Source of the DNA: an uncultured Bacilli bacterium
GTDB lineage: Bacteria > Bacillota_I > Bacilli_A > RF39 > UBA660
Direction: 5' to 3'
Assembly: GCA_934090795.1 (NCBI GenBank)
Contig: CAKOJQ010000002.1
Location: 13,250-77,249, forward strand
DNA length: 64,000 nt
Positions 1 through 20,681 of this stretch are shown here, in pieces (within the stretch, counting starts at the first letter, position 1; every line of letters begins with the position of its first letter). The notes beneath the pieces were generated by a model, which was not told the DNA's origin, searched no databases, and worked only from the letters and a program-made list of their open reading frames with translations. The position numbers and the translations under genes are program-made.

Positions 1-841
1 AGCTTACAATAGAAATAAGATTAAGAAGAATATAGATTTTAGGCATGATGTAAGTAATACAATACCAGATATGTTATATGGTGATTCAATAAAAGTAAAA
101 CAAATTATAAATAGTGTCATAGATAATTCAATAAAAAATACTAGTGAAGGATTTATAGAACTAAGAGTATCATGTATAGTAAAATATGATATATGTAGAT
201 TAATAATATCAGTAGAAGATTCAGGATCAGGAATAGATTTGGTAAAACAAAATAAGATATTAAGTGATAATTCTGAATTAAATGTAAATGAAATAAAAGG
301 AAAAGATGATTTAATAGTAAATTTAAAGATAGTAAACAAATTAATTAATATGATAGGTGGAACATTATCAATTGAATCACTTAATAATAATGGAACAATA
401 GTAAATATAACATTAGATCAAAAGATAGTACAAAGTGATGGAAGTACGTTAGATGAAAAATTAGATACATATAATAAATATATGAGTGATAAAAAAATTA
501 TAGGTATAATAAGTGAAAATAAAGATAATGTAAAAGTAATAAAACAAATTGGAAAGAAAAATAATTATAATGTAGAATCATTTGAAATGACTAAAACTTG
601 TTTAGATAAAATAAGAGATGGGGAAGTATTTGACACAATTGTGATAGATGAAGATATGGATAAAATAGATGCTAGAAGTTTCTTAGATAAAGTAAGAAAA
701 GTAGAGAGTTTTAAGGGAAAAGTATTTGTTATAACGAAGAAAAAGAGTATTCAGTTAAAGAAAGAATTAAAAGATTATGGCTTTGATGCTATATTAATTG
801 AGCCTTTAAATAAAAAAGATGTAGAGGTTAATTTTAAATAA
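1..841 (+). CDS. Hybrid sensor histidine kinase paralogue, C-terminal part (5' end lies outside the window)
   Basis: Reading frame is open from the window edge (codon phase starts at nt 2). The translation is identical to the C-terminal ~280 aa of the 2822..4618 kinase: N-box VIDNSIKNT, G1 EDSGSGID, receiver-like tail. Confidence 0.7.
   Translation, partial: AYNRNKIKKNIDFRHDVSNTIPDMLYGDSIKVKQIINSVIDNSIKNTSEGFIELRVSCIVKYDICRLIISVEDSGSGIDLVKQNKILSDNSELNVNEIKGKDDLIVNLKIVNKLINMIGGTLSIESLNNNGTIVNITLDQKIVQSDGSTLDEKLDTYNKYMSDKKIIGIISENKDNVKVIKQIGKKNNYNVESFEMTKTCLDKIRDGEVFDTIVIDEDMDKIDARSFLDKVRKVESFKGKVFVITKKKSIQLKKELKDYGFDAILIEPLNKKDVEVNFK
1..841. repeat. Direct repeat copy A, identical to 3778..4618
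   Basis: Colinear match at constant offset 3777 with no mismatch found by eye. Track ORFs 71..841 and 4..339(-) translate identically to the C-terminal 256 aa of 2822..4618 and to 3781..4116(-). The left boundary is cut by the window edge. Confidence 0.95.
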
Positions 842-905
842 AAATAATTAATAGATATGAATATAATAGGTGTTAATTTTATGTAATTTTGGGGGAATTA
901 TAAAA

Positions 906-2762
906 ATGAAAAAAGAGGATTTAATAGAGTTAAAGAAAAAAATAATAGAATTATCTAATAAAGAAAAAAAAGAAAGAGATATTTATTTAAGAGATATTGC
1001 TACTGATAAAATTTTAGGACCACAACTTGGATATCCTGAAATTGATAAACCATGGTTGCAATATTATGATTTAAATAAAAGCATAAATCATATAGATATG
1101 ACTGTATATGAATCATTAGTTTATCATAATCAAAATCATTTAAGTGAAGAAGCAATAGAATATTTTGGTGCAAAAATTTCATATAAAAAATTATTTAACA
1201 TGATAGAATCTGTTGCTAAATCTTTCAAATATAATGGAGTAAAAAAAGGAGATTTTGTTACAATTTGTTCTCCTGGTATTCCTGAAACGGTTTATAGTTT
1301 TTATGCACTATCTAAGCTTGGAGCAGTTGCTAATATGGTTGCACCATATTTTGATAAGCAAGACTTTGTAGATAGAATTTCTGATTGTAATAGTAAAATA
1401 TTAATTGTGATGGATAGTTTTTATGATGAAATAAAAGAGGCTGTTAATAAATCAATTATAGAAAAAATTATTATAGTTCCTACTTTAAATTCATCACCTT
1501 TAGGTTTAATTGGTAAAAGAGTTAAAGTAAATAAGAATAATAATGAAGTTTTATGGAATAATTTTCTAAATGAAGGTAAAAAAATAGAAGATTTAGAAAT
1601 AGTTTCATATGAAAAAGATCTACCTTTAGTAATGGTATATTCTAGTGGTACTACGGGTTCTTCAAAGGGAATTCTTTTAACTAATGATAGTTTTCAAAAT
1701 TCAGTAAGTGCTTATTTTAATTCGGGTTTAGATATTCATAGAAATCAAAAATTTTATCAAATTATACCAACATGGTATTCTACGGGGATTAGCACATCAG
1801 TACATTTACCACTTAATTGTGGCGCTACTGTTTTTATGGATCCTAGATTTGAAAGGAAAATTTTTATTAAAAATGTTTTAAAGGCAAGGCCTAATTATGC
1901 GGTTGCACCTACAAGTATGTATGAAGGATTTCTTGATAATCCTTGTTTGAAAAAACATGATCTATCTTATTTTACTAATGCATTTGAAGGTGGAGAGCCT
2001 CTTAGTGAAGAATTAGCAACTAGAATTAATAATGTATTTGAGGAACATAACAATAATTCTAGTATTAAAGTAGGATATGGACAATGTGAGTGTGGGGCAA
2101 CAATAACAACGCAAAATAATTTAACTGATCATTGCAATGGCTCTGTTGGTGTTCCGTTACCAGGAATTAATATTCGAATTTGTGATGATAATATGAATTC
2201 ATTACTATTTGGTGAAAGGGGACAAATTCTAGTTGATACTAAATCTAGCATGATTGGTTATTTTGCAAATAGAGAAGAAACAGATAAATATTTTTATATA
2301 GATGAAAATGGGCATAAATGGAATTGTACTGGTGATATCGGCTATATTGATGCAAAAGGAAATTTATTTGTTCAAGGTCGTGCATCAGACTACACTATTG
2401 TAAATGGTGAGAAATTTTATAATTTTGATATTGAAAATATTATTAAACAAGTTGATGGTGTAAAATTATGTGATGTTTTACATAGAAATATTAATGATAA
2501 GCAAGAATTTGTTGTACATTTGATTTTAGAAGACAATTTAGAAAATACCAATCATTATGATATTTTTAAAAGAATTCAAGATGCTGTTTATCAAGAAACA
2601 CATAATTTGAATATGGTTCCTAATGTATTTAAAGTAAGAAGTGAATTTCCTTATGCTAAATCTGGAAAAAGAGATATAGGAAAAATGATGAACGAAACTG
2701 ATGGTTTTTTAGAATTAAAGTTTGATGCTGCTAAAAATAAATATTTGCTAAAAAGAAAATAA
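906..2762 (+). CDS. AMP-dependent synthetase/ligase (acyl-CoA synthetase family)
   Basis: AMP-binding signature YSSGTTGSSKG and hinge motif GDIGYIDAKGNLFVQGRASD. A GGGGGA RBS lies ~9 nt before the ATG at 906; the track ORF starts at the upstream GTG 870. Confidence 0.85.
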   Translation: MKKEDLIELKKKIIELSNKEKKERDIYLRDIATDKILGPQLGYPEIDKPWLQYYDLNKSINHIDMTVYESLVYHNQNHLSEEAIEYFGAKISYKKLFNMIESVAKSFKYNGVKKGDFVTICSPGIPETVYSFYALSKLGAVANMVAPYFDKQDFVDRISDCNSKILIVMDSFYDEIKEAVNKSIIEKIIIVPTLNSSPLGLIGKRVKVNKNNNEVLWNNFLNEGKKIEDLEIVSYEKDLPLVMVYSSGTTGSSKGILLTNDSFQNSVSAYFNSGLDIHRNQKFYQIIPTWYSTGISTSVHLPLNCGATVFMDPRFERKIFIKNVLKARPNYAVAPTSMYEGFLDNPCLKKHDLSYFTNAFEGGEPLSEELATRINNVFEEHNNNSSIKVGYGQCECGATITTQNNLTDHCNGSVGVPLPGINIRICDDNMNSLLFGERGQILVDTKSSMIGYFANREETDKYFYIDENGHKWNCTGDIGYIDAKGNLFVQGRASDYTIVNGEKFYNFDIENIIKQVDGVKLCDVLHRNINDKQEFVVHLILEDNLENTNHYDIFKRIQDAVYQETHNLNMVPNVFKVRSEFPYAKSGKRDIGKMMNETDGFLELKFDAAKNKYLLKRK

Positions 2763-2821
2763 GTTTTATTAATAGAAATTTATTTTCTTTTTTGTTATTA
2801 TTAAAATGGTGAAAGTAGATT

Positions 2822-4618
2822 ATGACAAATAAAACATTATTAATAATTTTTAGTTTAATATATATGTTTGGATTAAATTTTTTATATTTTTCTAAAACAA
2901 GATTGAAAAATAAAGAAAATAAAGTATATAAAATAATGCTTATAGTTAACATTATAGGTTTGATTTTACAATTATTATGTGATTATGTGTCTTTTAAATA
3001 TGATATTGTTCCTAAAATAATATCTACAATAATTTATAAGTCGTATTTAGTTTACTTTATTGTATTTGTAAATTTAATGTTACTCTATTTAATAATTTTA
3101 GTGTTTAATAAATATGAAAGATTATTAATTAAGTGTGATACTGTAATAACTTTTATTGAATCATGGATTGTTTGTATGGCACCATATAGTTTATATAGAA
3201 ATGTTAAAACTAAAACGTATTATACATATGGTTTAGCTATTAACATATCATTTATATTTTCAGCTATTGTTTGTATATTTATGTTTGTTGTATTAATTGT
3301 GAATCATAAGAAAATATCCAAAACTAAGAGTATTCCAATATATTTATTAATTTTTTCAGGTCTTATTTCTGCTGCTATCCAACATACTTATCCTGATATT
3401 CTAATAATAACTTCTATGGAAAGTTGTATTTGTTTTTTAATGTATTTTACGATAGAAAATCCTGATTTAAAGATGTTAGAAGAGGTAACAAAGATTAAAG
3501 AAATAACAGAGAAAACTAATGAAGATAAATCATCATTTTTATATCATGTTACAGATGAAATGAATTTAGTATTAAATAATGTAAAAACTAAATTAAATAA
3601 CATAAATAAAATGAATGATATTAGTGAAATTAAACATAGTTTAAAAGAAATAGATGCAATAGTTGACAATAGTAAAAAAAGAGTAAATGCAACAATAAAT
3701 ATTTCAGAGATGGATTCTAAAGAATTAAAAGTAATAAATAATACTTATAATATAGTAAATTTATTAAATGGAATAGTAGCTTACAATAGAAATAAGATTA
3801 AGAAGAATATAGATTTTAGGCATGATGTAAGTAATACAATACCAGATATGTTATATGGTGATTCAATAAAAGTAAAACAAATTATAAATAGTGTCATAGA
3901 TAATTCAATAAAAAATACTAGTGAAGGATTTATAGAACTAAGAGTATCATGTATAGTAAAATATGATATATGTAGATTAATAATATCAGTAGAAGATTCA
4001 GGATCAGGAATAGATTTGGTAAAACAAAATAAGATATTAAGTGATAATTCTGAATTAAATGTAAATGAAATAAAAGGAAAAGATGATTTAATAGTAAATT
4101 TAAAGATAGTAAACAAATTAATTAATATGATAGGTGGAACATTATCAATTGAATCACTTAATAATAATGGAACAATAGTAAATATAACATTAGATCAAAA
4201 GATAGTACAAAGTGATGGAAGTACGTTAGATGAAAAATTAGATACATATAATAAATATATGAGTGATAAAAAAATTATAGGTATAATAAGTGAAAATAAA
4301 GATAATGTAAAAGTAATAAAACAAATTGGAAAGAAAAATAATTATAATGTAGAATCATTTGAAATGACTAAAACTTGTTTAGATAAAATAAGAGATGGGG
4401 AAGTATTTGACACAATTGTGATAGATGAAGATATGGATAAAATAGATGCTAGAAGTTTCTTAGATAAAGTAAGAAAAGTAGAGAGTTTTAAGGGAAAAGT
4501 ATTTGTTATAACGAAGAAAAAGAGTATTCAGTTAAAGAAAGAATTAAAAGATTATGGCTTTGATGCTATATTAATTGAGCCTTTAAATAAAAAAGATGTA
4601 GAGGTTAATTTTAAATAA
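2822..4618 (+). CDS. Membrane-bound hybrid sensor histidine kinase with degenerate H-box, G2-box and receiver
   Basis: ~6-7 N-terminal TM helices. DHp-like segment KSSFLYHVTDEMNLVLNN, then HATPase_c (GDSIKVKQIINSVIDNSIKNT, EDSGSGID) and a C-terminal REC-like domain (TIVIDEDMD, VFVITKK). GGTGAA RBS. Confidence 0.8.
   Translation: MTNKTLLIIFSLIYMFGLNFLYFSKTRLKNKENKVYKIMLIVNIIGLILQLLCDYVSFKYDIVPKIISTIIYKSYLVYFIVFVNLMLLYLIILVFNKYERLLIKCDTVITFIESWIVCMAPYSLYRNVKTKTYYTYGLAINISFIFSAIVCIFMFVVLIVNHKKISKTKSIPIYLLIFSGLISAAIQHTYPDILIITSMESCICFLMYFTIENPDLKMLEEVTKIKEITEKTNEDKSSFLYHVTDEMNLVLNNVKTKLNNINKMNDISEIKHSLKEIDAIVDNSKKRVNATINISEMDSKELKVINNTYNIVNLLNGIVAYNRNKIKKNIDFRHDVSNTIPDMLYGDSIKVKQIINSVIDNSIKNTSEGFIELRVSCIVKYDICRLIISVEDSGSGIDLVKQNKILSDNSELNVNEIKGKDDLIVNLKIVNKLINMIGGTLSIESLNNNGTIVNITLDQKIVQSDGSTLDEKLDTYNKYMSDKKIIGIISENKDNVKVIKQIGKKNNYNVESFEMTKTCLDKIRDGEVFDTIVIDEDMDKIDARSFLDKVRKVESFKGKVFVITKKKSIQLKKELKDYGFDAILIEPLNKKDVEVNFK
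3778..4618. repeat. Direct repeat copy B, identical to 1..841
   Basis: See copy A. Identity ends exactly after the TAA stop: 842 is a, 4619 is t. Confidence 0.95.
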
Positions 4619-4679
4619 TTCGACAAAAGTTTACATATCTTGACAATAGTTGTCAGGATATTTTCTTTTTATTTGTCAC
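4619..4679 (+). promoter_or_regulatory. spo0A upstream region with Spo0A-box-like elements
   Basis: TTCGACA at 4619..4625 is the exact reverse complement of the 0A-box core TGTCGAA. Inverted repeat TGACAA-tag-TTGTCA at 4641..4655. TTGTCAC at 4673..4679. A TATAAT-like -10 lies ~40 nt before the RBS. Confidence 0.45.
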
Positions 4680-4739
4680 ATTTAAGTGTATAATTAAATT
4701 ATGTGGTATTTATATAATAAAAGATGAAAAGGAGAGAAA

Positions 4740-5492
4740 ATGAAAACCAAAATACAGGTATTTATTGTAGATGATAACAAAGAAGTTATCAATGAAGTAA
4801 AGAAGTATTTTAGTAGTAAGAATGTTGGTGTAGAAATAGTAGGATCTTGTTCTAATGGAGAAGATGCTTTAATTGAATTAAAAGAAAATTATGGTAGTTA
4901 TGATTTAGTTTTAATGGATTTAGTTATACCAAAGAGAGATGGACTTAGCGTCTTAGAAGAATTAAAGAAAGAAAATATAAATATTAAAAGTATAATTACT
5001 ACATGTATAAATTCAGTGGATATAATTAAAAAGTGTATGGATGTTGGGGTAAGTTATTATATGTTAAAACCATATAATTTAGATTCTTTAGCTGATATTA
5101 TTAAAAGAATTGTTAATAATCAAAATAAAATAAGAATTGATAATAAAGACTTACAACAAGCTATAACAAATTTATTACATTCACTTGGAATGCCTAGTCA
5201 TATTAAAGGTTATAGTTACATTAGAGATAGTATTAGTTTAATGTATAATAAACCTAGTATGTTAGGTGCTATTACAAAAGAATTATATCCGGAAATTGCT
5301 AGTATGTATGATACAACTTCATCAAGAGTTGAAAGAGCAATAAGACATGCAATTGAGGTTAGTTGGACTAGAGGAGATTATGAAGTAATGGAAGAAATAT
5401 TTGGTCACTCTGTTGATTATGATAGAGCAAAACCAACTAATTCAGAGTTCATAGCTACTTTAGCAGATAAATTAAGATTAGAAATACATTAA
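4740..5492 (+). CDS. spo0A: Sporulation master regulator Spo0A
   Basis: Receiver domain (IVDDNKEV, LVLMDLVIPKRDG) plus the Spo0A-specific C-terminal domain including SRVERAIRHAIEVSWTRG. AAGGAGAG RBS. Confidence 0.95.
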   Translation: MKTKIQVFIVDDNKEVINEVKKYFSSKNVGVEIVGSCSNGEDALIELKENYGSYDLVLMDLVIPKRDGLSVLEELKKENINIKSIITTCINSVDIIKKCMDVGVSYYMLKPYNLDSLADIIKRIVNNQNKIRIDNKDLQQAITNLLHSLGMPSHIKGYSYIRDSISLMYNKPSMLGAITKELYPEIASMYDTTSSRVERAIRHAIEVSWTRGDYEVMEEIFGHSVDYDRAKPTNSEFIATLADKLRLEIH

Positions 5493-5496
5493 TTAA

Positions 5497-5520
5497 GGAT
5501 AGCTTAGGCTGTTCTTTTTT
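5497..5520 (+). terminator. Rho-independent terminator after spo0A
   Basis: GGATAGC-ttag-GCTGTTC: a 7-bp stem including G-U pairs, followed by T6. Confidence 0.65.
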
Positions 5521-5573
5521 AGATAAAATTTTTTTATTTTTCGGAAAATCGCAAAATTTTGTTAAAAAAAGTA

Positions 5574-5601
5574 TTGACATAATAAATTTTAGTTGTAAAA
5601 T
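5574..5601 (+). promoter_or_regulatory. Sigma-A-type promoter of the small-ORF module (copy 1)
   Basis: TTGACA (5574..5579), 16-nt spacer, TAAAAT (5596..5601). Confidence 0.6.
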
Positions 5602-5632
5602 ATTGATTAAATTTATTTAAAGGAGAAAAGGT

Positions 5633-5749
5633 ATGGCTAAAGTATTTAAAGAAATTAATTTTATTATTTCTAAAAATATCAATGTTAAATACAATTGTGG
5701 TTTTAACTTTGGCTGCGCATGCCTTAATATTGAAAATAGTTGGCGTTAA
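5633..5749 (+). CDS. 38-aa small ORF MAKVFKEINFIISKNINVKYNCGFNFGCACLNIENSWR (leader peptide or small Cys-containing peptide)
   Basis: AGGAG RBS 7 nt upstream of the ATG, its own promoter and its own terminator. The second copy encodes the identical peptide, with one synonymous difference (Ile33 ATT/ATC). The ORF is below the size cutoff of the ORF track. Confidence 0.45.
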   Translation: MAKVFKEINFIISKNINVKYNCGFNFGCACLNIENSWR

Positions 5750-5781
5750 AGAGTGTTATTTTGCTCTTTGGCGTCTTTTTT
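5742..5781 (+). terminator. Strong rho-independent terminator overlapping the small-ORF stop codon
   Basis: GGCGTTAAAGAG-(10 nt loop)-CTCTTTGGCGTC followed by T6. The 5' arm contains the last codons TGG CGT TAA. Confidence 0.8.
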
Positions 5782-5797
5782 AATTGGGAGGTGTTTT

Positions 5798-7237
5798 ATG
5801 AAAAATATTACTATTGATGATTTGCTTGAAAAATTAAAGGAATACAATGCGGAGGAAGTAGAAATTGTTAATAAAGCATATAAATATGCAAAAAATTTAC
5901 ATGCAGGACAATTTCGGCAAAGCGGAGAACCTTATATAAATCATCCTCTTAATGTAGCATATATTTTATGTGAAATGCATGCTGATAGAGATACTATATG
6001 TGCTGGATTACTTCATGATACATTAGAAGATACTAATATAACAAAAGAAGATATTGCACATGACTTTAATCAAAATATTGCTAATTTAGTAGATGGAGTT
6101 ACAAAGTTATCTAAAATGAATTTTTCTTCTAAACAAGATCAAAATTATGCAAATACGAGAAAGATTATAACTGGTATAACTGATGATGTTAGAATTATTA
6201 TAATTAAACTTGCTGATAGACTTCATAATATGAGAACTTTAGAGTTTAAATCTGAATTTAAACAAAAGGAAAATTCACTTGAAACTATGGAAATATTTGT
6301 TCCTCTTGCTTATTATATAGGAGCTTATAGAATAAAGAGTGAGCTTGAAGATTTATCGTTAAAATATTTGAAACCTGATATGTATAAAACGATAGAAGAA
6401 AGGAAATTAAAAATTGAAGAATCTAGTAAAGATTGTTTAATGGAAATGTTAGGTAAAATAGAAACATTACTTAATGATAGAAATATTCCTAATGAGATAA
6501 AAGTTAGAACTAAAAATATTTATGGAATATATAAAAGATTAAATGAAGGGCATAAGATATCTGATATACATGATTTATTAGCACTTAAAATAATGGTAGA
6601 TGAAATATCGAATTGTTATTTGACTTTAGGATTAATACATAAAGAATATCATCCTATAAATGAGAAATTTAAAGATTATATTTGTAATCCTAAAACAAAT
6701 ATGTATAGAAGTTTACATACAACTGTGTTTGGACCGGATGAAAGAATTGTACAAACTCAAATAAGAACATTTGAGATGGATAGAGTAGCATCTTTTGGTC
6801 TTACTGCATATTGGGATGAACAAAAAGGAAGAGCAAGAGATGTAATGCAGGAAGATTTAAAACAAAAATTTCAATTCTTTAAATCTTTAATAGAAATTAA
6901 TTCTATGTTTGGGGATAACCAACAATTTGTTAATCAAGTAAAGAATGAATTATTTGCAGATAGAATTTATGTTTATACAACTAAAGGAGATATTATAGAA
7001 CTTCCAAAAGGGGCTACACCAATAGATTTTGCATATAAAATACATACTGATATAGGTAATACGATGGTTGGCGTATTTGTTAATGATGAATATGTACCAG
7101 TTGATTATGTTTTACATAATAAGGATAGAGTAAGAATAGTTACAGATGATTATTCTTTTGGGCCAAGAGAGGATTGGATTGAGAAAGCTCAAACTAGCCT
7201 GGCTAAAAAGAAAATAAGAGAGTTTAATAGGAGATAG
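5798..7237 (+). CDS. rel: RelA/SpoT-homologue (Rel), truncated after the TGS domain
   Basis: HD hydrolase motifs (GEPYINHPLNVA, HDTLEDT), synthetase-fold motifs (YRSLHTTV, QIRTFEM), TGS (GATPIDFAYKIHTDIGN). GGGAGG RBS 6 nt before the ATG at 5798; the track ORF starts at upstream GTG 5753, inside the terminator. Confidence 0.85.
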   Translation: MKNITIDDLLEKLKEYNAEEVEIVNKAYKYAKNLHAGQFRQSGEPYINHPLNVAYILCEMHADRDTICAGLLHDTLEDTNITKEDIAHDFNQNIANLVDGVTKLSKMNFSSKQDQNYANTRKIITGITDDVRIIIIKLADRLHNMRTLEFKSEFKQKENSLETMEIFVPLAYYIGAYRIKSELEDLSLKYLKPDMYKTIEERKLKIEESSKDCLMEMLGKIETLLNDRNIPNEIKVRTKNIYGIYKRLNEGHKISDIHDLLALKIMVDEISNCYLTLGLIHKEYHPINEKFKDYICNPKTNMYRSLHTTVFGPDERIVQTQIRTFEMDRVASFGLTAYWDEQKGRARDVMQEDLKQKFQFFKSLIEINSMFGDNQQFVNQVKNELFADRIYVYTTKGDIIELPKGATPIDFAYKIHTDIGNTMVGVFVNDEYVPVDYVLHNKDRVRIVTDDYSFGPREDWIEKAQTSLAKKKIREFNRR

Positions 7238-7246
7238 GAGAAAAAT

Positions 7247-8908
7247 ATGAATTTAAAAGATTATTTTGGATATTGTGATGATAACAATTTTGATATTGTT
7301 TCAAGATATATGAGAGAATTAAATATAGATTTAGAGCAAGTATATAATTTTAATTATCCTTTTTTTAAGGGAAATTATGAAAGAAATTTTGGAAATTTTT
7401 TGCAAAATAAAAAATTGAATTATGATTCCATGTCACCTAGTGATATTTTTAAGTATATTGCACCTTATTTTGAAAATATACCTAATTGGAATAATCCTGG
7501 TACTATGATAAACGTAATTCCACCAGTAAATTTAACATCTCTTGCTGTAACAAATATTGCAAATATGTATAATCCAAATTTTGCTCAAGATACTTATTCC
7601 GGTATGTTAATTACTTCTGAGTTGGAGGTATCTAAATATATAAGTGATTTAGTTGGATGGAATTATAAAAAATCGCATGGAACATTTACTTTTGGTGGTA
7701 AGGGAACAAATCTTTATGCTACAAAAGTTGCTTTAAATAAAGTTGATAAAAAAAGTACCGTTAATGGATTGGAAAGAAATAAATACTTTATGATAACTAG
7801 TAAAAATGGACATCCTTGTCATTATGAGGTTTGTAATTGGTTAGGAATAGGAACTTCTAATTGTTATGAAATAGAGTGTAATAAAGACGGCAAAATAAAT
7901 TTGGCATTTGTTGAAAAAATAATCGACGAAAATATAAAGAAAGGAAAATTATTTCTAGGATATAATTTAACTGCTGGTAGTACTAATGAACTTTTAGTTG
8001 ATGATATTAAAAAAATCTTTTATTTGAATAAAAAAATTGTAAAAAAATATAATTTAAGTTATATTCCTCACATTCATGCAGATGCAGTTTTGGGATGGGT
8101 TTACTTGTTTTTTAATACATATGATTTTGAAACTAATCCCTTGTGTATTGATGAAATTTCATTAAAAAAAATAAAAAGTTTAAATAAAAAAATTCAAGAA
8201 TTAAAATATGTAGATTCGATTGGCGTTGATTTTCATAAAACAGGGTTTTGTCCATATACATCAAGTATTATTTTATTTAAAAATAAAGATGATTATTTTA
8301 CACTTTGTGAAAATGACAATGTAGAATTAGATGACATTTGTTATGGAAATTATAATCCTTATCATTCTACATTGGAATTAACAAGACCGTCAATTGGGCC
8401 TGTAAGTGCTTTATGTTCATTAAAATCATTGGGTATATCTGGTTTTCAAAAAATAGTTGCGAATATGTTTAGCTGTTCAGAATATTTTAGGAAAAAGCTA
8501 TGTGAAAATCCTAAAATAAGCTTAATAAATGGTGAAACAGAAGGAATAGCTTCTTTATTTATAATTAAGCCTTTAAAATATAAAGAATTTGATATAAAAA
8601 AAGTAAAAAAATATTCAAATATAGAAATAGATGAGATAAAAAATTATAATATAAATTATGGAAAATATATTTTAAAAAAATCTATCAAAAATGAAATACA
8701 TTTTATTTTCACATCTTCAAGAAGTTATAAATTACCTGGCACAGAAATTAAAATAGGTGCACTTAAAACATACCCTATGTCTGTATATATGACTTTTGAT
8801 AAAGTAGATGAAATTATAAATGAAATAAATGCATCTATTGATAGCTATGAACAAGAAAAAATTAGTGACGAAAAACTAGAATTAGATGATAATATGGTGT
8901 ATAGATAA
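7247..8908 (+). CDS. PLP-dependent group II decarboxylase-like protein
   Basis: GGKGTNLYATK, HADAVLGW and DFHKTG (putative PLP-lysine) motifs. TAGGAG RBS. Starts 10 nt after the rel stop. Confidence 0.65.
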   Translation: MNLKDYFGYCDDNNFDIVSRYMRELNIDLEQVYNFNYPFFKGNYERNFGNFLQNKKLNYDSMSPSDIFKYIAPYFENIPNWNNPGTMINVIPPVNLTSLAVTNIANMYNPNFAQDTYSGMLITSELEVSKYISDLVGWNYKKSHGTFTFGGKGTNLYATKVALNKVDKKSTVNGLERNKYFMITSKNGHPCHYEVCNWLGIGTSNCYEIECNKDGKINLAFVEKIIDENIKKGKLFLGYNLTAGSTNELLVDDIKKIFYLNKKIVKKYNLSYIPHIHADAVLGWVYLFFNTYDFETNPLCIDEISLKKIKSLNKKIQELKYVDSIGVDFHKTGFCPYTSSIILFKNKDDYFTLCENDNVELDDICYGNYNPYHSTLELTRPSIGPVSALCSLKSLGISGFQKIVANMFSCSEYFRKKLCENPKISLINGETEGIASLFIIKPLKYKEFDIKKVKKYSNIEIDEIKNYNINYGKYILKKSIKNEIHFIFTSSRSYKLPGTEIKIGALKTYPMSVYMTFDKVDEIINEINASIDSYEQEKISDEKLELDDNMVYR

Positions 8909-8937
8909 AATGATAATTAATAAAAAGGATGATTAAT

Positions 8938-9759
8938 ATGGAAATAGAACAATTTAATGATGAAATACAAATAGTTAAACAATTATTAGATTCGTTAACA
9001 TCATTTAAATATGATTCAATAACTTTATATGGATCGGCATATAATAAAGAAACTTTTGAAAAAGATTTATCTGATATTGATATAATTGTAATGTCAAAAA
9101 AATTTAATGATTATAATCTTAATAGTATTGTTAACGAACTTAAAATAAAAAATATAAACTTTAGAGAAAAGTCTCCAAAAATTATAATTGATAATCTCTG
9201 CGCAAGAATTGAATTTTATGTCAAATTTGAAAAAATAAGTATTGATGTAACATTATGCGGAGGATTAATTCCAAATATTGATGAATTAATAAAAAATGCT
9301 TGGTATGATAGTTTTGAAGCATTAATGGGTGGAGTATATATTTATTCAAAAACTATTTATGGAATGATTCCGGATTATGAATTATTTAAGGAAAAATATT
9401 ATCCTTTTTATAATGATGAATTAAGAAAAAAAAGGTTAAAAATTTTATGTGAAAAATTAGAAATTTACAATAAAAAAATAGAGTATAATTACAATATTAA
9501 AAGTACTGAAACTATTGATATGTTAATAAAAGCAAGAAAATATTTTATTAAAATCCTATTTATATATTATAAAAAATATTATTGGTCACCTGAAAAACAT
9601 ATATATTATCAATTAAATAATTTTTTAAATCTTGATGAAGAAACTAAAAAAATATTAACATTTTCATGTGGAGATATATTTGAATGTTCAAAAAAGTATT
9701 TAAATGTATCAAAAATGTATTTATCTTTGATCAAAAAGGAAATTTTAGATAATTTTTAA
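8938..9759 (+). CDS. Nucleotidyltransferase-domain protein
   Basis: Minimal NTase motif LYGSAYN...LSDIDIIVMS. AAGGA RBS favours the ATG at 8938 over 8929. Confidence 0.55.
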   Translation: MEIEQFNDEIQIVKQLLDSLTSFKYDSITLYGSAYNKETFEKDLSDIDIIVMSKKFNDYNLNSIVNELKIKNINFREKSPKIIIDNLCARIEFYVKFEKISIDVTLCGGLIPNIDELIKNAWYDSFEALMGGVYIYSKTIYGMIPDYELFKEKYYPFYNDELRKKRLKILCEKLEIYNKKIEYNYNIKSTETIDMLIKARKYFIKILFIYYKKYYWSPEKHIYYQLNNFLNLDEETKKILTFSCGDIFECSKKYLNVSKMYLSLIKKEILDNF

Positions 9760-9799
9760 AATAATTAGTGAAGAATAAAATATGATAATTTTTAAATTA

Positions 9800-9829
9800 T
9801 TAACAAATTATTAATGTATATGTTATAAT
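9800..9829 (+). promoter_or_regulatory. Probable leuS promoter
   Basis: TTAACA, 18-nt spacer, TGtTATAAT (extended -10). Confidence 0.5.
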
Positions 9830-9871
9830 AAAATCATTAGATGAAATGCAATTACGAAGGAGTTGATTGTT

Positions 9872-12295
9872 ATGTACAATTTTAAAGAAGTAGAGGAAAA
9901 ATGGGAAAAGAGATGGGATGAAGAAAAAAGTTTTAAAGCTATAGATTTTCATCCAACTAAGCCTAAATATTATGTGTTATATGAATTTTTTAATATAAGT
10001 GGAAATTTACATATGGGTCATTTAAAAGGTTCTGTTCCAGCGGATGCACTTGCTAGAATGAAAAGATTTCAAGGTTATAATGTCTTATTCCCAATAGGTG
10101 GTGATTCTTTTGGTTTACCTGCTGAAAATGCGGCAATTAAAACAGGAATAGATCCTAAAATATTTGTTACTAATGGAATGAAAAATGTTCTTGCTCAATC
10201 TAAAAGAATTGGTTTGTCATTTGATTATGATAGAGTGTTTGCAACTAGTGATGAAGATTATTATAAATGGACACAATGGATATTTTTACAATTTTTTAAA
10301 AATGGCAAAGCATATAAAAAGAAAGGCGTTGTAAACTTTTGTCCTAATTGTAAGACCGTACTTTCTAATGAAGATTCTCAAGGTGGAATTTGTGATAGAT
10401 GCCATGGCAAAGTAATTCAAGATGAAAGATGGGTATGGTTCTTAAAGATGAGAGAATACTCTGAAAAACTTCTTGGTAATGTTGATAGAATTAATATGAA
10501 TGAGAACTTGAAAGAACTTCAAAGAAATTGGATAGGTAAGAGTGAAGGATTAAAAGTATCATTTGAAATAGTTGATGAAAAAAATAATAAATTAACTGAT
10601 GCTGAAATATTTACTACTTGTCCTGAAACTATATATGGAATTACATTTATGGTTATGGCTCCTGAACATGAATTAATTAGTAAGTTAAAAGATAATATTA
10701 AAAATTATGAAGAAGTTAAAAAATATCAAGAAGAAACAAGATACAGAAGTGAACTTGATCGAATTAGTAATCAAAAAGAAAAGACTGGATGTATATTAGA
10801 TGGATTATATGCAATTAATCCAGTTAATGGAAGAAAAGTTCCAATTTATATTGCTGATTTTGTTTTAGCAGGATATGGTACGGGAATGGTTATGGCTGTT
10901 CCTACTCATGATCAAAGAGATTATGAATTTGCTAAAGAATTTAATATTCCAATGATTCAAGTCATAGAAGGCGATGTAAGTAATAACTCAGTTGAAAAGA
11001 TGGAATATTTAAATAATAATTATAAGATGATGAACTCTGATGAATTTAGTGGTTTACCGGTTAAAGAAGCTAAAGAAAAGATTGTTGATAAATTAGTAAA
11101 TACTCATGTTGGTGAAAAAGTTGTTAATTACAAAATGCAAGATTGGTCATTCAATAGACAAAGATACTGGGGAGAACCGTTCCCAATCGTATTCTGTGAT
11201 AAATGTGGAACTGTTCCAGTACCTGAAGAAGAATTGCCTGTTAGATTACCACAAACTGATGATTATATGGCAAGAGAAGATGGTGCATCTCCTTTATCTA
11301 AAATAGAAGATTGGGTAAATTGTAAATGTCCTAAGTGTGGCGGACCAGCAAAAAGAGAAACTGATACAATGCCTAACTGGGCTGGATCAAGTTGGTACTG
11401 GCTTAGATATTGTGATCCTAAAAATAATGAGAAATTAGCAGATTTTGATAAACTTAAGTATTGGGGAAGTGTTGATTGCTATACAGGTGGTACTGAACAT
11501 ATAACTAGACATGTACTATATGCATTCTTCTGGCAAAACTTCTTGTATGAAATAGGTGCTGTACCTTCAAGAGATCCATTCATAAGAAAAATGGGTAGTG
11601 GTTTAATTTTAGATGATACTGGAAAGAAAATGAGTAAGAGTTCTGCTAATGGTGTATCTCCTATGGAAGTTATTGATAAATATGGCTCAGATGTAGCAAG
11701 ACTTCATGTTCATTTCTTAGGTGGTTATGAAGATAATATAGCTTGGACATATGATGGAATAAATGGAATAGTTAACTTTATTAATAAAGTATGGGATTTA
11801 CAAAATATTGTAAAAGAAGATGAAGAATTATCAAGTGAACAAGAATATGACTTAAATTCACTTATTAAAAAAGTAACTGAAGATTTAGAAGATTTAAAAT
11901 TAAATACATCTATTGCAGCTTGCATGAGTTATCTTAAAAAAGTTAAGGAACGTGGATATATTACTAAGAGAGAATTAAAATCATTCTTAATTGTATTAAA
12001 CCCACTTGCACCTCATATAACTAGTGAGTTATTTGAAATCGTATTTAATAAAAATATAATTGAAGAATTATGGCCAAAATATGAAGAAAATAAATTAGTA
12101 AAAAACACCTTTAATTTAGTTGTTCAAGTTAATGGTAAGATTAGAGGAAAAATAGAAGTTACAACAGATACTCCAGAAGAAGAAATGTTTGAACTTGCTA
12201 AGTCTATTGATAATGTTAAAACATTTATAGATAATAAAGAAATAGTTAAAGTTATAACTGTTCCTAGGAAGTTAGTTAATATTGTTGTTAAATGA
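9872..12295 (+). CDS. leuS: Leucyl-tRNA synthetase
   Basis: HMGH (HIGH variant), KMSKS, CP1/editing region and Zn-finger-like CxxC pairs. GAAGGAG RBS. TGA stop. Confidence 0.95.
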   Translation: MYNFKEVEEKWEKRWDEEKSFKAIDFHPTKPKYYVLYEFFNISGNLHMGHLKGSVPADALARMKRFQGYNVLFPIGGDSFGLPAENAAIKTGIDPKIFVTNGMKNVLAQSKRIGLSFDYDRVFATSDEDYYKWTQWIFLQFFKNGKAYKKKGVVNFCPNCKTVLSNEDSQGGICDRCHGKVIQDERWVWFLKMREYSEKLLGNVDRINMNENLKELQRNWIGKSEGLKVSFEIVDEKNNKLTDAEIFTTCPETIYGITFMVMAPEHELISKLKDNIKNYEEVKKYQEETRYRSELDRISNQKEKTGCILDGLYAINPVNGRKVPIYIADFVLAGYGTGMVMAVPTHDQRDYEFAKEFNIPMIQVIEGDVSNNSVEKMEYLNNNYKMMNSDEFSGLPVKEAKEKIVDKLVNTHVGEKVVNYKMQDWSFNRQRYWGEPFPIVFCDKCGTVPVPEEELPVRLPQTDDYMAREDGASPLSKIEDWVNCKCPKCGGPAKRETDTMPNWAGSSWYWLRYCDPKNNEKLADFDKLKYWGSVDCYTGGTEHITRHVLYAFFWQNFLYEIGAVPSRDPFIRKMGSGLILDDTGKKMSKSSANGVSPMEVIDKYGSDVARLHVHFLGGYEDNIAWTYDGINGIVNFINKVWDLQNIVKEDEELSSEQEYDLNSLIKKVTEDLEDLKLNTSIAACMSYLKKVKERGYITKRELKSFLIVLNPLAPHITSELFEIVFNKNIIEELWPKYEENKLVKNTFNLVVQVNGKIRGKIEVTTDTPEEEMFELAKSIDNVKTFIDNKEIVKVITVPRKLVNIVVK

Positions 12296-12308
12296 GTATA
12301 ATAATTAA

Positions 12309-12332
12309 GGATAGCTTTGGCTGTTCTTTTTT
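12309..12332 (+). terminator. Rho-independent terminator after leuS
   Basis: Same hairpin as 5497..5520, with one loop substitution, plus a T-tract. Confidence 0.65.
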
Positions 12333-12385
12333 AGATAAAATCTTTTTATTTTTCGGAAAATCGCAAAATTTTGTTAAAAAAAGTA

Positions 12386-12413
12386 TTGACATAATAAATT
12401 TTAGTTGTAAAAT
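12386..12413 (+). promoter_or_regulatory. Sigma-A-type promoter of the small-ORF module (copy 2)
   Basis: TTGACA-16-TAAAAT, identical to copy 1. Confidence 0.6.
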
Positions 12414-12444
12414 ATTGATTAAATTTATTTAAAGGAGAAAAGGT

Positions 12445-12561
12445 ATGGCTAAAGTATTTAAAGAAATTAATTTTATTATTTCTAAAAATATCAATGTTAA
12501 ATACAATTGTGGTTTTAACTTTGGCTGCGCATGCCTTAATATCGAAAATAGTTGGCGTTAA
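12445..12561 (+). CDS. 38-aa small ORF, second copy (identical peptide)
   Basis: Same RBS and frame as copy 1. The only difference is synonymous: ATC instead of ATT at codon 33. Confidence 0.45.
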   Translation: MAKVFKEINFIISKNINVKYNCGFNFGCACLNIENSWR

Positions 12562-12592
12562 AGAGTGCTATTTTGCTCTTTGACGCCTTTTT
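12554..12592 (+). terminator. Strong terminator of module copy 2
   Basis: GGCGTTAAAGAG...CTCTTTGACGCC plus T5. Two 3'-arm substitutions relative to copy 1 turn wobble pairs into Watson-Crick pairs. Confidence 0.8.
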
Positions 12593-12677
12593 AATAAATG
12601 TATATCATAATTCATGCTCTATAAACAAAGAATTAGTATTATTTATAAAAAGTTTACAATAAAATAATTTTTTAATT

Positions 12678-12899
12678 TTGCTGATTTCATCTTCAAATAA
12701 GGAAAAAGTTAATAATGATTTAAAAAATATATCAGAATATATTTTATTTGATGAAATTTATACAAAAGAAAATTTTGAAAATTTTGATTTTGAAACAATT
12801 GAATGTTTTGATGGTGGACCGTATATTGAAAAAGATAATCAAGATAATTTTGCTTTTTATAAACAAACTTATTATATTGGAAAGAGAAAGGAAAGATAA
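12678..12899 (+). CDS. Hypothetical 73-aa ORF, possibly a gene remnant
   Basis: TTG start, no recognisable RBS, no internal Met. Ends 2 nt before the next gene. Weak support. Confidence 0.2.
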   Translation: MLISSSNKEKVNNDLKNISEYILFDEIYTKENFENFDFETIECFDGGPYIEKDNQDNFAFYKQTYYIGKRKER

Positions 12900-12901
12900 A
12901 A

Positions 12902-13561
12902 ATGAAAAATATAATATTATTAAGTGGGCCAGATAAAACAAAATATTTTAATGATGAAATTGTAAAAATAATTAAAGAAAATGCTAATAATCCTATTAAT
13001 ATGGTAGTTATACCAGCAGATTCTAATAATTATGTTAAAAATGATAGACAATTTAATGGTAATGAAACTGTAGTAGGAGTTTATAAAACTTTTAAAGAAA
13101 TATTTTCTGATTTAAATATTTCTTTATTAGATAACAGAGTTAATTTAGAGGACGGAATAAATAGTTTGAAAAATGCAGATATTATATATCTTCTTGGAGG
13201 AAATCCATTTATTCAATTAGAATACTTGAAAAAAAATAAATTTGATGATGTAATACGGAATACTTCTGCATTAGTTATTGGTGTAAGTGCCGGTTCAATG
13301 AATTTAGCAACAAATTCATATTATTCTAAAGATGAAGATTATCCAGAAAGTATAATTTATAAAGGATTAGGACTAACTGATATAACTATTGATCCGCACT
13401 TTGATATCAATAATGAAGAACAGGTAATTGAAATAAGAAAAAATTCAAAAGATATTAAAATTATTGGATTGCCAAATGATTCTGCAATAGTTATTTCAAA
13501 TAATGATATTAAATATATAGGAGATGTATATATTTTTGAAAATGGAAATTTGAATAGTTAA
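12902..13561 (+). CDS. Peptidase S51 (dipeptidase E / PepE-like), paralogue 1
   Basis: LLGGNPF, GVSAGSMNL (nucleophile Ser), IDPHFD and IIGLPNDS motifs, as in PepE. Confidence 0.8.
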   Translation: MKNIILLSGPDKTKYFNDEIVKIIKENANNPINMVVIPADSNNYVKNDRQFNGNETVVGVYKTFKEIFSDLNISLLDNRVNLEDGINSLKNADIIYLLGGNPFIQLEYLKKNKFDDVIRNTSALVIGVSAGSMNLATNSYYSKDEDYPESIIYKGLGLTDITIDPHFDINNEEQVIEIRKNSKDIKIIGLPNDSAIVISNNDIKYIGDVYIFENGNLNS

Positions 13562-13926
13562 AGAATATTAAATTGATTATCAAAAAAGAATTATTATAAA
13601 TAGTGTTCTTAATTGTAATGTAAGTTATCTGTCTATATTTATACAAACAAGAATTTTTTGGAAAATTGTTATTATCTTTTTTGTTGATACACTAAAGTAT
13701 AATTGTCCTCTACATGGTGGATTTGTACTAAGATTGGATAGATTAACAATGTTAATTACATGGACTGGTAATATTTGCGACGAAATTATATTTTTATAGT
13801 ATAAATTATTACATAACATGTTAGATGAAAGAAATATTCACAATTCAAAATTTGAAAGTATTGGTGACAAAATTAATGTTGGGTGTGGTCAAATGGCTGC
13901 TAATAAATTAGAGAGGATAAAGAAAA

Positions 13927-14610: not shown

Positions 14611-14649
14611 AATAGTGTTTTATAATGATTGTATTATTTGTGAGGAAAA

Positions 14650-15207: not shown

Positions 15208-15276
15208 TTTTATGAAATATAGAATTAAAATTTCTTATTTTCTTTATTGATTATTAAAATGAAATGAGGAATGATT

Positions 15277-16059: not shown

Positions 16060-16081
16060 AAATAAGGAGATGTTTTAAATT

Positions 16082-16762: not shown

Positions 16763-16786
16763 TAAATATGTGTTAGGTGATAGATT

Positions 16787-20678: not shown

Positions 20679-20681
20679 ATT

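What the first reader, a model, noticed from the sequence alone, without database searches (positions are those of the whole stretch)
5633..5781. 38-codon ORF whose stop codon sits inside its own terminator stem: leader peptide, attenuator or small Cys peptide?
The ORF encodes MAKVFKEINFIISKNINVKYNCGFNFGCACLNIENSWR, with Cys at positions 22, 28 and 30. It has a well-spaced AGGAG RBS.

Its last codons, TGG CGT TAA (5741..5749), overlap the 5' arm of the terminator (GGCGTTAAAGAG, 5742..5753). A ribosome reaching the stop would therefore occlude the terminator.

The heptamer CTTTGGC occurs twice: inside the ORF (5707..5713) and in the terminator 3' arm (5766..5772). The upstream copy could pair with GTTAAAG of the 5' arm as a weak 7-bp alternative, anti-terminator-like helix.

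The Cys/Gly/Ala codons form the only GC-rich patch in the module (GGCTGCGCATGCC). That patch may reflect RNA structure rather than a requirement for those amino acids.

Competing explanations are translation-coupled attenuation, a small structured RNA, or a genuine secreted or modified peptide. Against the last, I see no leader or signal sequence and no nearby modification enzyme.
Basis: partly seen in the sequence, partly recalled or inferred. Interest (0 to 1): 0.65.

Follow-up and report, generated by a model that had tools for sequence, protein, structure and literature searches.

The report
Leader ORF attenuator before rel gene
The 38-codon ORF is real and belongs to a conserved control unit (promoter, short translated ORF, terminator that contains the ORF's stop codon) placed in front of the stringent-response gene rel in a clade of uncultured gut Bacilli. 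It most likely makes rel transcription depend on a ribosome translating the short ORF.

Summary
A strong promoter (5574..5601), an SD, the 38-codon ORF (5633..5749) and an intrinsic terminator (5742..5775, -17.8 kcal/mol, z -6.7) lie directly before rel (5798..7237). No other plus-strand promoter match lies between this promoter and rel.

The same layout occurs upstream of rel in about 70 of 80 related loci. The peptides are hypervariable. In 71 loci the ORF stays open up to the terminator, and its stop lies -11 to +24 nt (median +12) from the hairpin foot.

A second helix is conserved and shows compensatory changes. It pairs the start-codon region (5628..5644) with the GC-rich Cys patch (5705..5726). 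This explains the 'SC/AC' motif (xCA-UGy) and the TGC codon bias.

The peptide is only weakly constrained (pN/pS 0.56, against 0.10 for rel).

Best reading: a ribosome-occlusion leader-ORF attenuator of the pyrBI/pyrE type, not a RiPP precursor.

Nothing here was tested experimentally.

The parts
5495..5516 (+). Terminator hairpin of the upstream spo0A-like gene. It forms the 5' part of the 296-nt repeated unit.
   Evidence: Terminator scan. The same sequence follows leuS at 12307..12328.
5574..5601 (+). Sigma-A type promoter, TTGACA-16 nt-TAAAAT, for the leader and rel.
   Evidence: 11 of 12 matches. TTGACA and TAAAAT are conserved in the family alignments. No other plus-strand promoter match lies between here and rel.
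5621..5625 (+). Shine-Dalgarno AGGAG of the short ORF, 7 nt before the ATG.
   Evidence: Sequence. An SD precedes the ORF in all 71 loci, but this was a selection criterion of the scan.
5633..5749 (+). 38-codon leader ORF (the finding).
   Evidence: Positional homologues are found in about 70 of 80 rel loci. pN/pS is 0.56 against 0.10 for rel.
5628..5644 (+). Helix P1, 5' arm: AAAGGUAUGGCUAAAGU. It contains the start codon.
   Evidence: Duplex of -18.2 kcal/mol, z -5.1. The helix was counted on alignment A1.
5705..5726 (+). Helix P1, 3' arm: AACUUUGGCUGCGCAUGCCUUA.
   Evidence: Strain variants at 5716 and 5718 (C to T) keep the pairs as G-U.
5742..5775 (+). Intrinsic terminator hairpin. The ORF stop codon (5747..5749) lies in its 5' arm.
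   Evidence: All stem variants among strains are GU to AU/GC changes. 7 of 11 pairs show compensatory changes in A1.
5776..5781 (+). T-tract of the terminator.
5786..5791 (+). Shine-Dalgarno GGGAGG of rel, 5 nt after the T-tract.
   Evidence: Sequence. GGAGGTG is conserved in the alignments.
5798..7237 (+). rel: a long RSH truncated after the TGS domain (HD, RelA_SpoT and TGS domains; 479 aa). This is the gene controlled by the leader.
   Evidence: Pfam. TIGR00691 scores 525 bits, above the 499 cut-off. Aligns to B. subtilis Rel 6yxa residues 7-482.
12297..12592 (+). Second copy of the whole unit (upstream terminator, promoter, ORF, terminator), 97% identical to 5485..5780. It follows leuS and is not followed by rel.
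   Evidence: The same arrangement is seen in other samples (L099, L101, L102).
12445..12561 (+). Copy 2 of the 38-codon ORF. The peptide is identical, with one synonymous change (ATT to ATC).
12554..12587 (+). Copy 2 of the terminator hairpin (-19.3 kcal/mol). The 3' arm change GGCGTC to GACGCC turns G-U pairs into Watson-Crick pairs.

Best explanation
The ORF is the leader ORF of a ribosome-dependent transcription attenuator that controls rel and the genes cotranscribed behind it.

Transcription starts at the promoter at 5574..5601. By default it ends at the terminator at 5742..5781, 17 nt before the rel start codon. No alternative RNA antiterminator is encoded; the antiterminator is the ribosome itself.

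The ORF is kept open up to the foot of the hairpin and stops inside its 5' arm. A ribosome on the last codons or on the stop codon therefore covers the 5' arm while RNA polymerase makes the 3' arm and the U-tract. The hairpin cannot form, and polymerase reads through into rel.

A second conserved helix, P1, pairs the start-codon region (5628..5644) with a mid-ORF element (5705..5726, the 'Cys patch'). Once that element has been transcribed, the start codon is sequestered. Only a ribosome that loads co-transcriptionally, within roughly the first 75-90 nt, can translate, and terminated leader transcripts stay untranslated.

The unit thus reports whether a pioneer ribosome initiates promptly and keeps pace with polymerase. 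Poor initiation, or a lag at hungry codons (Cys codons are five-fold enriched), gives termination. Tight coupling gives rel expression.

Shown: the anatomy, its conservation, the covariation, the weak constraint on the peptide sequence, and the absence of a conserved antiterminator. Inferred: that the ORF is translated, that the ribosome blocks the hairpin, and the polarity of the response.
For: 1. Promoter, SD, ORF, terminator and rel SD are packed with no room for a separate rel promoter.
2. The layout is conserved in about 70 of 80 rel loci from many species, although the peptides are hypervariable. The stop lies -11..+24 nt (median +12) from the hairpin 5' base in 71 loci.
3. The SD frame is open for a mean of 37 codons, while the other two frames carry 9% and 15% stops. 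A -1/+1 compensated frameshift in L018 and L078 restores the frame before the conserved core.
4. pN/pS is 0.56 for the ORF against 0.10 for rel in the same genome pairs. Synonymous divergence in the ORF is half that of rel, which points to constraint at the nucleotide level.
5. P1 is -18.2 kcal/mol with z -5.1 in the window. On alignment A1, 85% of cells are paired and 4 of 10 pairs show double changes, against 35-56% paired in slid controls. In one family the pair next to the AUG runs C-G, then U-G, then U-A (L009, L021, L073).
6. All terminator-stem variants among strains preserve pairing, and 7 of 11 pairs are compensatory in A1.
7. There is no conserved antiterminator: median z is +0.2, and real arms do no better than shuffled arms (p = 0.89).
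8. Experimental precedent in E. coli: an intrinsic terminator a few nt from a stop codon is almost fully repressed by the translating ribosome, and the repression is lost when translation is uncoupled (PMC4824070).
9. Folding with a ribosome footprint placed on the stop codon is the only tested condition that removes the terminator from the MFE structure.
Against: - There are no expression data.
- In B. subtilis-type Firmicutes, polymerase is thought to outrun the ribosome. That would make terminator occlusion by a pioneer ribosome inefficient (own knowledge).
- Cys codons are enriched outside P1 as well (6.5% against 1.6%), and a Cys sits at codons 22-30 in most peptides. This could mean that the peptide itself matters.
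- pN/pS of 0.56 is below 1.
- RNAalifold on A1 recovered only the terminator, not P1. The P1 structure I counted was derived from one of the aligned sequences.
- Copy 2 of the unit (12297..12592) is not followed by rel, so the unit is not strictly tied to rel.
- The polarity is inferred from anatomy alone.
Confidence: 0.6

Rival explanations
1. The ORF encodes a functional small Cys-containing peptide (a signal, bacteriocin or RiPP precursor, or metal/redox peptide). The terminator is the end of its own gene and is leaky, so the peptide mRNA is abundant and rel and the downstream genes are expressed at a lower level, as with mccA, nisA or sboA.
For: - Cys is five-fold enriched (8.2% against 1.6%), with a Cys or Cys-x-Cys at codons 22-30 in most families. 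Enrichment persists outside the P1 arm (6.5%).
- The ORF is conserved with a good SD, and pN/pS of 0.56 is below 1.
- Radical SAM genes, peptidases and a C39-like peptidase occur behind rel in some loci.
- Copy 2 stands without rel.
Against: - The identical peptide (P0003, or the window peptide) sits before completely different gene sets in different strains. No enzyme other than rel is co-conserved with it.
- The radical SAM proteins are short and RlmN/Cfr-like or viperin-like. They do not reach the cut-off of any SPASM maturase model.
- The peptides are hypervariable. Residues 2-14 can be replaced through a compensated frameshift, and distant relatives have only 18-19 codons.
- The start codon is sequestered in a -18 kcal/mol helix in the finished transcript.
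- The TGC codon bias points to constraint on the RNA.
- There is no Pfam hit, and the only homologues are close relatives of 87-97% identity.
Confidence: 0.2
2. A classical trp/his-type attenuator. A ribosome stalled in the ORF frees an upstream segment (CTTTGGC and its surroundings) to pair with the terminator 5' arm as an RNA antiterminator.
For: - In the window, regions 1:2, 2:3 and 3:4 can be drawn with -18.9, -11.0 and -18.7 kcal/mol.
- The Cys codons could serve as regulatory codons.
- Masking the start region raises pairing of the 5' arm with upstream sequence from 0.38 to 0.52 on average.
Against: - The 2:3 pairing is not conserved: median z is +0.2 and only 1 of 42 leaders has z below -2.
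- The rise in arm pairing is the same for shuffled arms (0.46 against 0.46, p = 0.89; delta p = 0.10).
- The terminator stays in the MFE structure for ribosome footprints at the start or on the Cys codons.
- The stop codon lies inside region 3, not before region 2.
- The regulated gene is not a cysteine biosynthesis gene.
Confidence: 0.08
3. A type I toxin-like module: a small toxic peptide whose mRNA is kept translationally silent by the 5' fold P1 and stabilised by the 3' hairpin.
For: - The start codon is sequestered by long-range pairing.
- There is a strong 3' hairpin.
- Some family members are hydrophobic (L019, L062, L069).
- The units are multicopy and lie in a variable island.
Against: - The window peptide has no membrane-spanning stretch (my reading of the sequence).
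- No conserved antisense promoter or RNA was seen.
- The unit is always fused to the rel SD, with no promoter for rel.
- Versions of 18-19 codons exist.
- The constraint on the peptide is weak.
Confidence: 0.04
4. An RNA-only element (a riboswitch, protein-binding leader or sRNA) in which the ORF is incidental.
For: - P1 closes a multi-stem domain that is followed by a terminator, an architecture typical of riboswitches.
- Synonymous sites are constrained.
- A nucleotide block such as ACUAACAUUAUUUACUCAUG is conserved in family A, including its third codon positions.
Against: - No Rfam family matches, even at E up to 10.
- The sequence enclosed by P1 is hypervariable and has no conserved core.
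- The SD plus an open frame of 30-50 codons is maintained in about 70 loci, while the other frames are full of stops, and one frameshift is compensated.
Confidence: 0.04

Closest known systems
pyrBI and pyrE attenuators of E. coli (leader-ORF translation coupled to transcription; own knowledge, with Roland et al. as cited in PMC4824070)
   Same: The leader ORF runs into, or ends next to, an intrinsic terminator. No RNA antiterminator exists. Read-through happens when the leading ribosome is close enough to polymerase to prevent hairpin folding. [quoted passage not shown]
   Different: The regulated gene is rel, not a pyrimidine gene. No UTP-sensitive pause sites have been shown. The stop lies inside the 5' arm, whereas the pyrBI leader ORF ends downstream of the hairpin and the rph stop lies upstream of the pyrE hairpin. 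The extra helix P1 sequesters the leader start codon. The host is an AT-rich Firmicute-type organism.
trp, his and leu operon leader-peptide attenuators
   Same: A short SD-preceded leader ORF, an intrinsic terminator before the first structural gene, and one amino acid over-represented in the leader.
   Different: There is no conserved 2:3 antiterminator. The stop codon is in the terminator arm. The Cys codons are scattered rather than in tandem runs in most leaders. The controlled gene does not make the over-represented amino acid.
Polycysteine leaderless sORF attenuators of mycobacteria (Canestrari et al., bioRxiv 10.1101/834739)
   Same: Short Cys-rich upstream ORFs act as ribosome-based sensors in front of operons, and the sORF sequences are otherwise variable.
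   Different: The mycobacterial sORFs are leaderless, carry consecutive Cys codons and act on translation: the stalled ribosome unmasks the downstream RBS. They control cysteine metabolism. Here there is an SD, an intrinsic terminator and rel.
Leader ORF plus terminator units of antibiotic-resistance genes in Firmicutes (vmlR, PMC9226507; msrD, PMC10314930; mef/mel, PMC4335068; listed)
   Same: A leader ORF and an intrinsic terminator precede translation-related genes. ABC-F, Cfr/RlmN-like and extra aaRS genes are among the cassettes found behind rel here.
   Different: As I understand them (own knowledge; I did not open these papers), those systems use an alternative RNA structure released by a drug-stalled ribosome. 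No such structure is conserved here, and no inducer is known.
mccA-mccB terminator of microcin C and precursor-gene terminators of lantibiotic operons (own knowledge)
   Same: A very short ORF is followed at once by a terminator, and the downstream enzymes are expressed by read-through.
   Different: In those systems the peptide is the product and co-evolves with its enzymes. Here the same peptide precedes unrelated gene sets, and its own start codon is sequestered.

Membership tests
Ribosome-occlusion (pyrBI/pyrE-type) leader-ORF attenuator | SD-preceded leader ORF between the promoter and the first structural gene | tested here: met
   An SD and an ATG/GTG/TTG start are present in 71 loci.
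Ribosome-occlusion (pyrBI/pyrE-type) leader-ORF attenuator | Intrinsic terminator directly upstream of the structural gene, supported by covariation | tested here: met
Ribosome-occlusion (pyrBI/pyrE-type) leader-ORF attenuator | The leader ORF reaches the terminator hairpin, so that a ribosome on its last codons or stop covers the 5' arm | tested here: met
   The stop lies -11..+24 nt from the hairpin foot (median +12) in 71 loci. In L038 the frame reads through the hairpin.
Ribosome-occlusion (pyrBI/pyrE-type) leader-ORF attenuator | No alternative RNA antiterminator is needed | tested here: met
   pairing with the 5' arm is no better than for shuffled sequence.
Ribosome-occlusion (pyrBI/pyrE-type) leader-ORF attenuator | Read-through depends on translation of the leader and on the ribosome-polymerase distance (NTP-sensitive pausing) | not testable with these tools
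   This needs reporters, Term-seq or in vitro coupled assays.
trp/his-type leader-peptide attenuator | Mutually exclusive 2:3 antiterminator and 3:4 terminator helices | tested here: not met
   The 2:3 pairing reaches -11 kcal/mol in the window only. It is not conserved.
trp/his-type leader-peptide attenuator | Tandem regulatory codons for the amino acid made by the operon | tested here: not met
   Cys is enriched, but the first gene is rel. Sulfur-related genes follow only in some loci (L002, L005).
RiPP or bacteriocin precursor | A co-conserved modifying enzyme or transporter next to the precursor | tested here: not met
   The same peptide has unrelated downstream genes in different strains.
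RiPP or bacteriocin precursor | A recognisable leader/core organisation or a family model hit | tested here: not met
   No Pfam hit. No double-glycine or other motif was seen. Only near-identical homologues exist.
Type I toxin-antitoxin | A hydrophobic membrane-spanning toxin peptide and an antisense or adjacent sRNA | tested here: inconclusive
   The window peptide is not hydrophobic, although some relatives are. No conserved antisense promoter was seen. No RNA data are available.
Known cis-regulatory RNA families (Rfam: T-box, ppGpp/PRPP riboswitch and others) | A match to a covariance model | tested here: not met
   nothing better than E = 4 in 5450..5850.
Mycobacterial polycysteine sORF attenuators | A leaderless sORF with consecutive Cys codons that unmasks the downstream RBS | tested here: not met
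   An SD is present, an intrinsic terminator rather than RBS masking is used, and the rel SD is not paired in the predicted folds.

The most novel reading that the evidence does not exclude
In this clade Rel has lost the C-terminal domains that dock long RSH enzymes onto starved ribosomes; all homologues are about 479 aa and end after TGS. The ribosome-status input would instead be supplied at the level of synthesis, by a leader ORF whose pioneer ribosome decides whether rel is transcribed. The same sensor would then gate a strain-variable set of translation-related cassettes that are fused to the 3' end of rel: extra aaRS genes, Cfr/RlmN-like and viperin-like radical SAM enzymes, ABC-F and SAM synthetase. 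That would be a new way of wiring the stringent response and accessory translation-stress genes to one ribosome sensor.
Probability: 0.2. Interest if true: 0.75.

Novelty: new variant of a known kind. Interest (0 to 1): 0.5.

Why it matters
Control of rel/relA is normally discussed at the level of enzyme activity on the ribosome. I found no description of a leader-ORF attenuator in front of a long RSH gene.

If the mechanism holds, it gives three things:
- A compact natural example of attenuation by terminator occlusion in a Firmicute-type lineage, with an added start-codon clamp (P1).
- A handle on how uncultured, genome-reduced gut Bacilli (RF39-like) regulate their truncated Rel.
- A marker, the leader plus rel, for the 5' edge of a strain-variable island of translation-related genes.

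It is also a caution for small-protein and RiPP mining. A conserved Cys motif in a short ORF can be the footprint of an RNA helix (xCA-UGy pairing with the AUG).

Tried and rejected
- **Rfam**, at gathering and permissive thresholds: no family.
- **Antiterminator, tested two ways.** Best duplex against shuffles gave median z +0.2. Pairing probability of the 5' arm with a ribosome at the start was the same for real and shuffled arms. The apparent effect (p = 3e-7) is generic. Rejected.
- **RNAalifold on 15 family-A-like leaders:** it found only the terminator. P1 had to be specified by hand and counted.
- **PADLOC** on neighbouring proteins: nothing convincing.
- **Rel against phage and plasmid collections:** only about 44% identity to ordinary Firmicute Rel. 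No sign that the unit is a known phage or plasmid gene.
- **Scan of the whole 64-kb window** for other short ORFs whose stop lies in a terminator: only the two copies of this unit.
- **AgrD-like, SCIFF/ranthipeptide-like and microcin C-like readings:** considered and dropped. No AgrB, SPASM maturase or ThiF-like enzyme is present, no C-terminal Asn is conserved, and the neighbours are not conserved.
- **T-box idea** (UGC and AAC as specifier-like codons): dropped for lack of any T-box match.

Full report
**What is there.** The window is about 24% GC. By its closest relatives it comes from an uncultured gut Bacilli lineage; related records are labelled 'uncultured Bacilli', 'Tenericutes' and 'Mycoplasma sp. 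CAG:472/611'.

The finding lies between a spo0A equivalog (4740..5492; TIGR02875 at 259 bits) and a rel gene (5798..7237).

The hairpin folds at -17.8 kcal/mol with z -6.7. A TTGACA-16-TAAAAT promoter (11 of 12) sits at 5574..5601. No other plus-strand promoter match lies between it and rel, and the rel SD begins 5 nt after the T-tract. As far as the sequence shows, rel can only be transcribed by reading through this terminator. No Rfam family matches.

**Conservation.** Using Rel as the query I fetched 80 loci from species-representative genomes, with 70-99% Rel identity. Nearly all have a short ORF ending 40-55 nt before rel and a terminator hairpin ending about 22 nt before the rel ATG, with unrelated stem sequences.

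In 71 loci an SD-preceded ORF of 18-55 codons ends with its stop codon -11 to +24 nt (median +12) from the 5' base of that hairpin. The peptides fall into at least 15 unrelated-looking families.

The SD frame is open for a mean of 37 codons, while the other two frames of the same DNA carry 9% and 15% stops. In L018 and L078 a -1 deletion just after the ATG is compensated by a +1 insertion 38 nt later, which replaces residues 2-14 but restores the frame.

The more distant loci L070 and L080 lack the unit. Within the 64-kb window, only this unit and its copy show the stop-in-terminator arrangement.

**Is the peptide itself selected?**
- Within families, pN/pS is 0.56 for the ORF and 0.10 for rel in the same genome pairs.
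- Synonymous divergence is 0.17 in the ORF against 0.33 in rel, so there is constraint at the nucleotide level and only weak constraint on the amino acids.
- Among strains carrying the window-type leader there are 3 synonymous changes, 4 missense changes and 1 nonsense change (W37 to stop). The nonsense change moves the stop to the hairpin foot and turns a G-U pair into an A-U pair.
- The only database homologues are six clusters at 87-97% identity.

**A second conserved helix explains the Cys patch.** The start region AAAGGUAUGGCUAAAGU (5628..5644) pairs with AACUUUGGCUGCGCAUGCCUUA (5705..5726) at -18.2 kcal/mol, z -5.1.

Most families show the same AUG:CAUG pairing 60-90 nt downstream of the start. 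The CAU is almost always in the frame xCA-UGy, which yields the recurring 'SC' or 'AC' motif.

On a 15-sequence alignment this helix has 85% of cells paired and 4 of 10 pairs with changes on both sides, against 35-56% paired when the partner is slid. The terminator scores 89% and 7 of 11. In another family the pair next to the AUG goes C-G (L009), U-G (L021), U-A (L073); the last step is a Cys-to-Tyr change in the peptide.

Cys is 8.2% of the residues, against 1.6% in the proteome sample. It is 16.6% inside the P1 arm and 6.5% outside. TGC makes up 55% of Cys codons, against 9-12% in genes. Part of the Cys signal is therefore an RNA footprint. The remainder may reflect regulatory codons or further structure.

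**No RNA antiterminator.** In the window a 2:3 pairing of -11 kcal/mol can be drawn. Across 42 non-redundant leaders, however, the best pairing between the ORF interior and the terminator 5' arm is no better than for shuffled sequence (median z +0.2).

Placing a ribosome on the start raises 5'-arm pairing, but it does so equally for shuffled arms (p = 0.89). In constrained folds of the window leader, only a ribosome footprint on the stop codon removes the terminator.

**Mechanism proposed.** The conserved features are as follows:
- a promoter;
- an SD and AUG;
- the helix P1, which sequesters the AUG;
- a frame kept open exactly up to the hairpin foot;
- a stop in the 5' arm;
- a terminator;
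- the rel SD.

These fit an attenuator in which the ribosome itself is the antiterminator, as in pyrBI and pyrE. The position rule has been measured in E. coli: a terminator a few nt from a stop codon is almost fully repressed, and the repression is lost when translation is uncoupled (PMC4824070).

P1 would restrict initiation to the period before its 3' arm is made. It would also keep terminated leader RNAs untranslated, which argues against the peptide being the product.

Read-through would then require prompt initiation and a ribosome that keeps up with polymerase. Lagging, for example at Cys codons, would give termination. Translation, occlusion and polarity are all inferences; none is shown.

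**Context, which bears on the rivals.** Rel here is a genuine long RSH N-terminal half plus TGS. It scores 525 bits on TIGR00691 and aligns to B. subtilis Rel residues 7-482. It stops after TGS in all homologues, at about 479 aa.

The genes behind rel differ completely between strains that carry the same leader peptide:
- in the window, a PLP-decarboxylase-like gene plus NTP_transf_2;
- two unknown genes (379 and 362 aa) plus an RlmN/Cfr-like radical SAM gene;
- two unknown genes (194 and 205 aa), a viperin-like radical SAM gene and a bona fide AsnRS;
- DUF402, a radical-SAM-like gene and a LysRS/EpmA-like gene;
- an archaeal-type SAM synthetase;
- a helicase plus a ligase.

In other species the sets include LeuRS, a TrpRS-like gene, an AsnA/aaRS-like gene, ABC-F, PAPS reductase plus CysNC, and radical SAM plus a cysteine-desulfurase-like gene. 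Homology between strains breaks within the last few codons of rel.

This excludes a precursor peptide that co-evolves with its enzymes. It suggests that rel plus the leader forms the constant head of variable operons.

**The second copy.** The window holds a 296-nt direct repeat, 5485..5780 and 12297..12592, at 97% identity. Copy 2 follows leuS and has the same promoter. Its peptide is identical, with one synonymous change. Its terminator has 3'-arm changes that improve pairing. It is followed not by rel but, after about 90 nt, by a 73-codon ORF and Peptidase_S51 genes.

A strain of the same species (L001) has the order spo0A-leuS-leader-rel, whereas the window has spo0A-leader-rel-PLPdc-NTPt-leuS-leader. 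The repeats therefore appear to be substrates for rearrangement. The unit is not strictly bound to rel.

The best explanation is a ribosome-occlusion leader-ORF attenuator of the rel operon (confidence 0.6). A functional Cys peptide with a leaky terminator remains the main rival (0.2).

It is a new variant of a known kind of regulator. I found no report of such a leader before a long RSH gene.

Noticed in passing
window 5485..5780 and 12297..12592: A 296-nt direct repeat (97% identical) carries a gene-end terminator, a promoter, the 38-codon ORF and its terminator. The two copies flank rel, PLPdc, NTP_transf and leuS. A strain of the same species (L001) has the gene order permuted, which suggests recombination between such units.
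   Followed up: partly
window 7247..9759 and 12600..17440; loci L081-L104: The region behind rel is a strain-variable island. Identical leader and rel are followed by unrelated 2-4 gene cassettes (extra aaRS or aaRS-like genes, RlmN/Cfr-like and viperin-like radical SAM genes, SAM synthetase, helicase plus ligase, PLP-decarboxylase-like plus NTP_transf_2), then by several Peptidase_S51 paralogues and a GNAT. Homology between strains breaks within the last codons of rel.
   Followed up: partly
window 5798..7237; all of L001-L080: Rel is truncated right after the TGS domain (about 479 aa) in every homologue found, so it lacks the C-terminal ribosome-binding domains of long RSH enzymes. Some genomes hold two copies, for example L032 and L038 in the complete MAG OZ007038.1.
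   Followed up: partly
window 1..300 and 3778..4077: A 100% identical 300-nt direct repeat lies inside two hybrid histidine kinase/response regulator genes (71..841, cut by the window start, and 2822..4618). The two genes flank an AMP-binding enzyme gene (870..2762).
   Followed up: no
window 4740..5492: A Spo0A equivalog (TIGR02875, 259 bits against a cut-off of 200) occurs in a lineage labelled Tenericutes or Mycoplasma-like in public records, next to hybrid histidine kinases. Whether these organisms sporulate was not examined.
   Followed up: no
L010 4408..5538; L038 4511..5569; L008 4582..4980: Mob_Pre relaxase-like genes (L010, L038) or a RhuM-family gene (L008) lie directly upstream of the leader-rel unit. 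Some copies may therefore sit in mobilisable elements.
   Followed up: no
L018 and L078 compared with L010 (alignment): A compensated frameshift in the leader ORF: a -1 deletion in the A-run after the ATG and a +1 insertion 38 nt downstream. It changes residues 2-14 but keeps the frame into the conserved core.
   Followed up: yes
window 8929..9759: The NTP_transf_2 protein behind rel has a weak, sub-threshold resemblance to CBASS oligonucleotide cyclases (E = 2e-4 in both NCBIfam and PADLOC).
   Followed up: no
window 1..64000: Rfam at gathering thresholds finds only two tRNAs in 64 kb. No T-box lies upstream of leuS (9863..12295), and there is no riboswitch.
   Followed up: no
L038 (upstream of rel at 6001): In this copy the leader ORF has lost its in-frame stop. 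The frame reads through the terminator hairpin to the rel start region.
   Followed up: partly
family A leaders (alignment A1, columns 94-116): The nucleotide block UACUAACAUUAUUUACUCAUG is almost invariant, including third codon positions (ACU, AAC). It extends 5' of the P1 arm, and no pairing partner or other reason for its conservation was found.
   Followed up: partly
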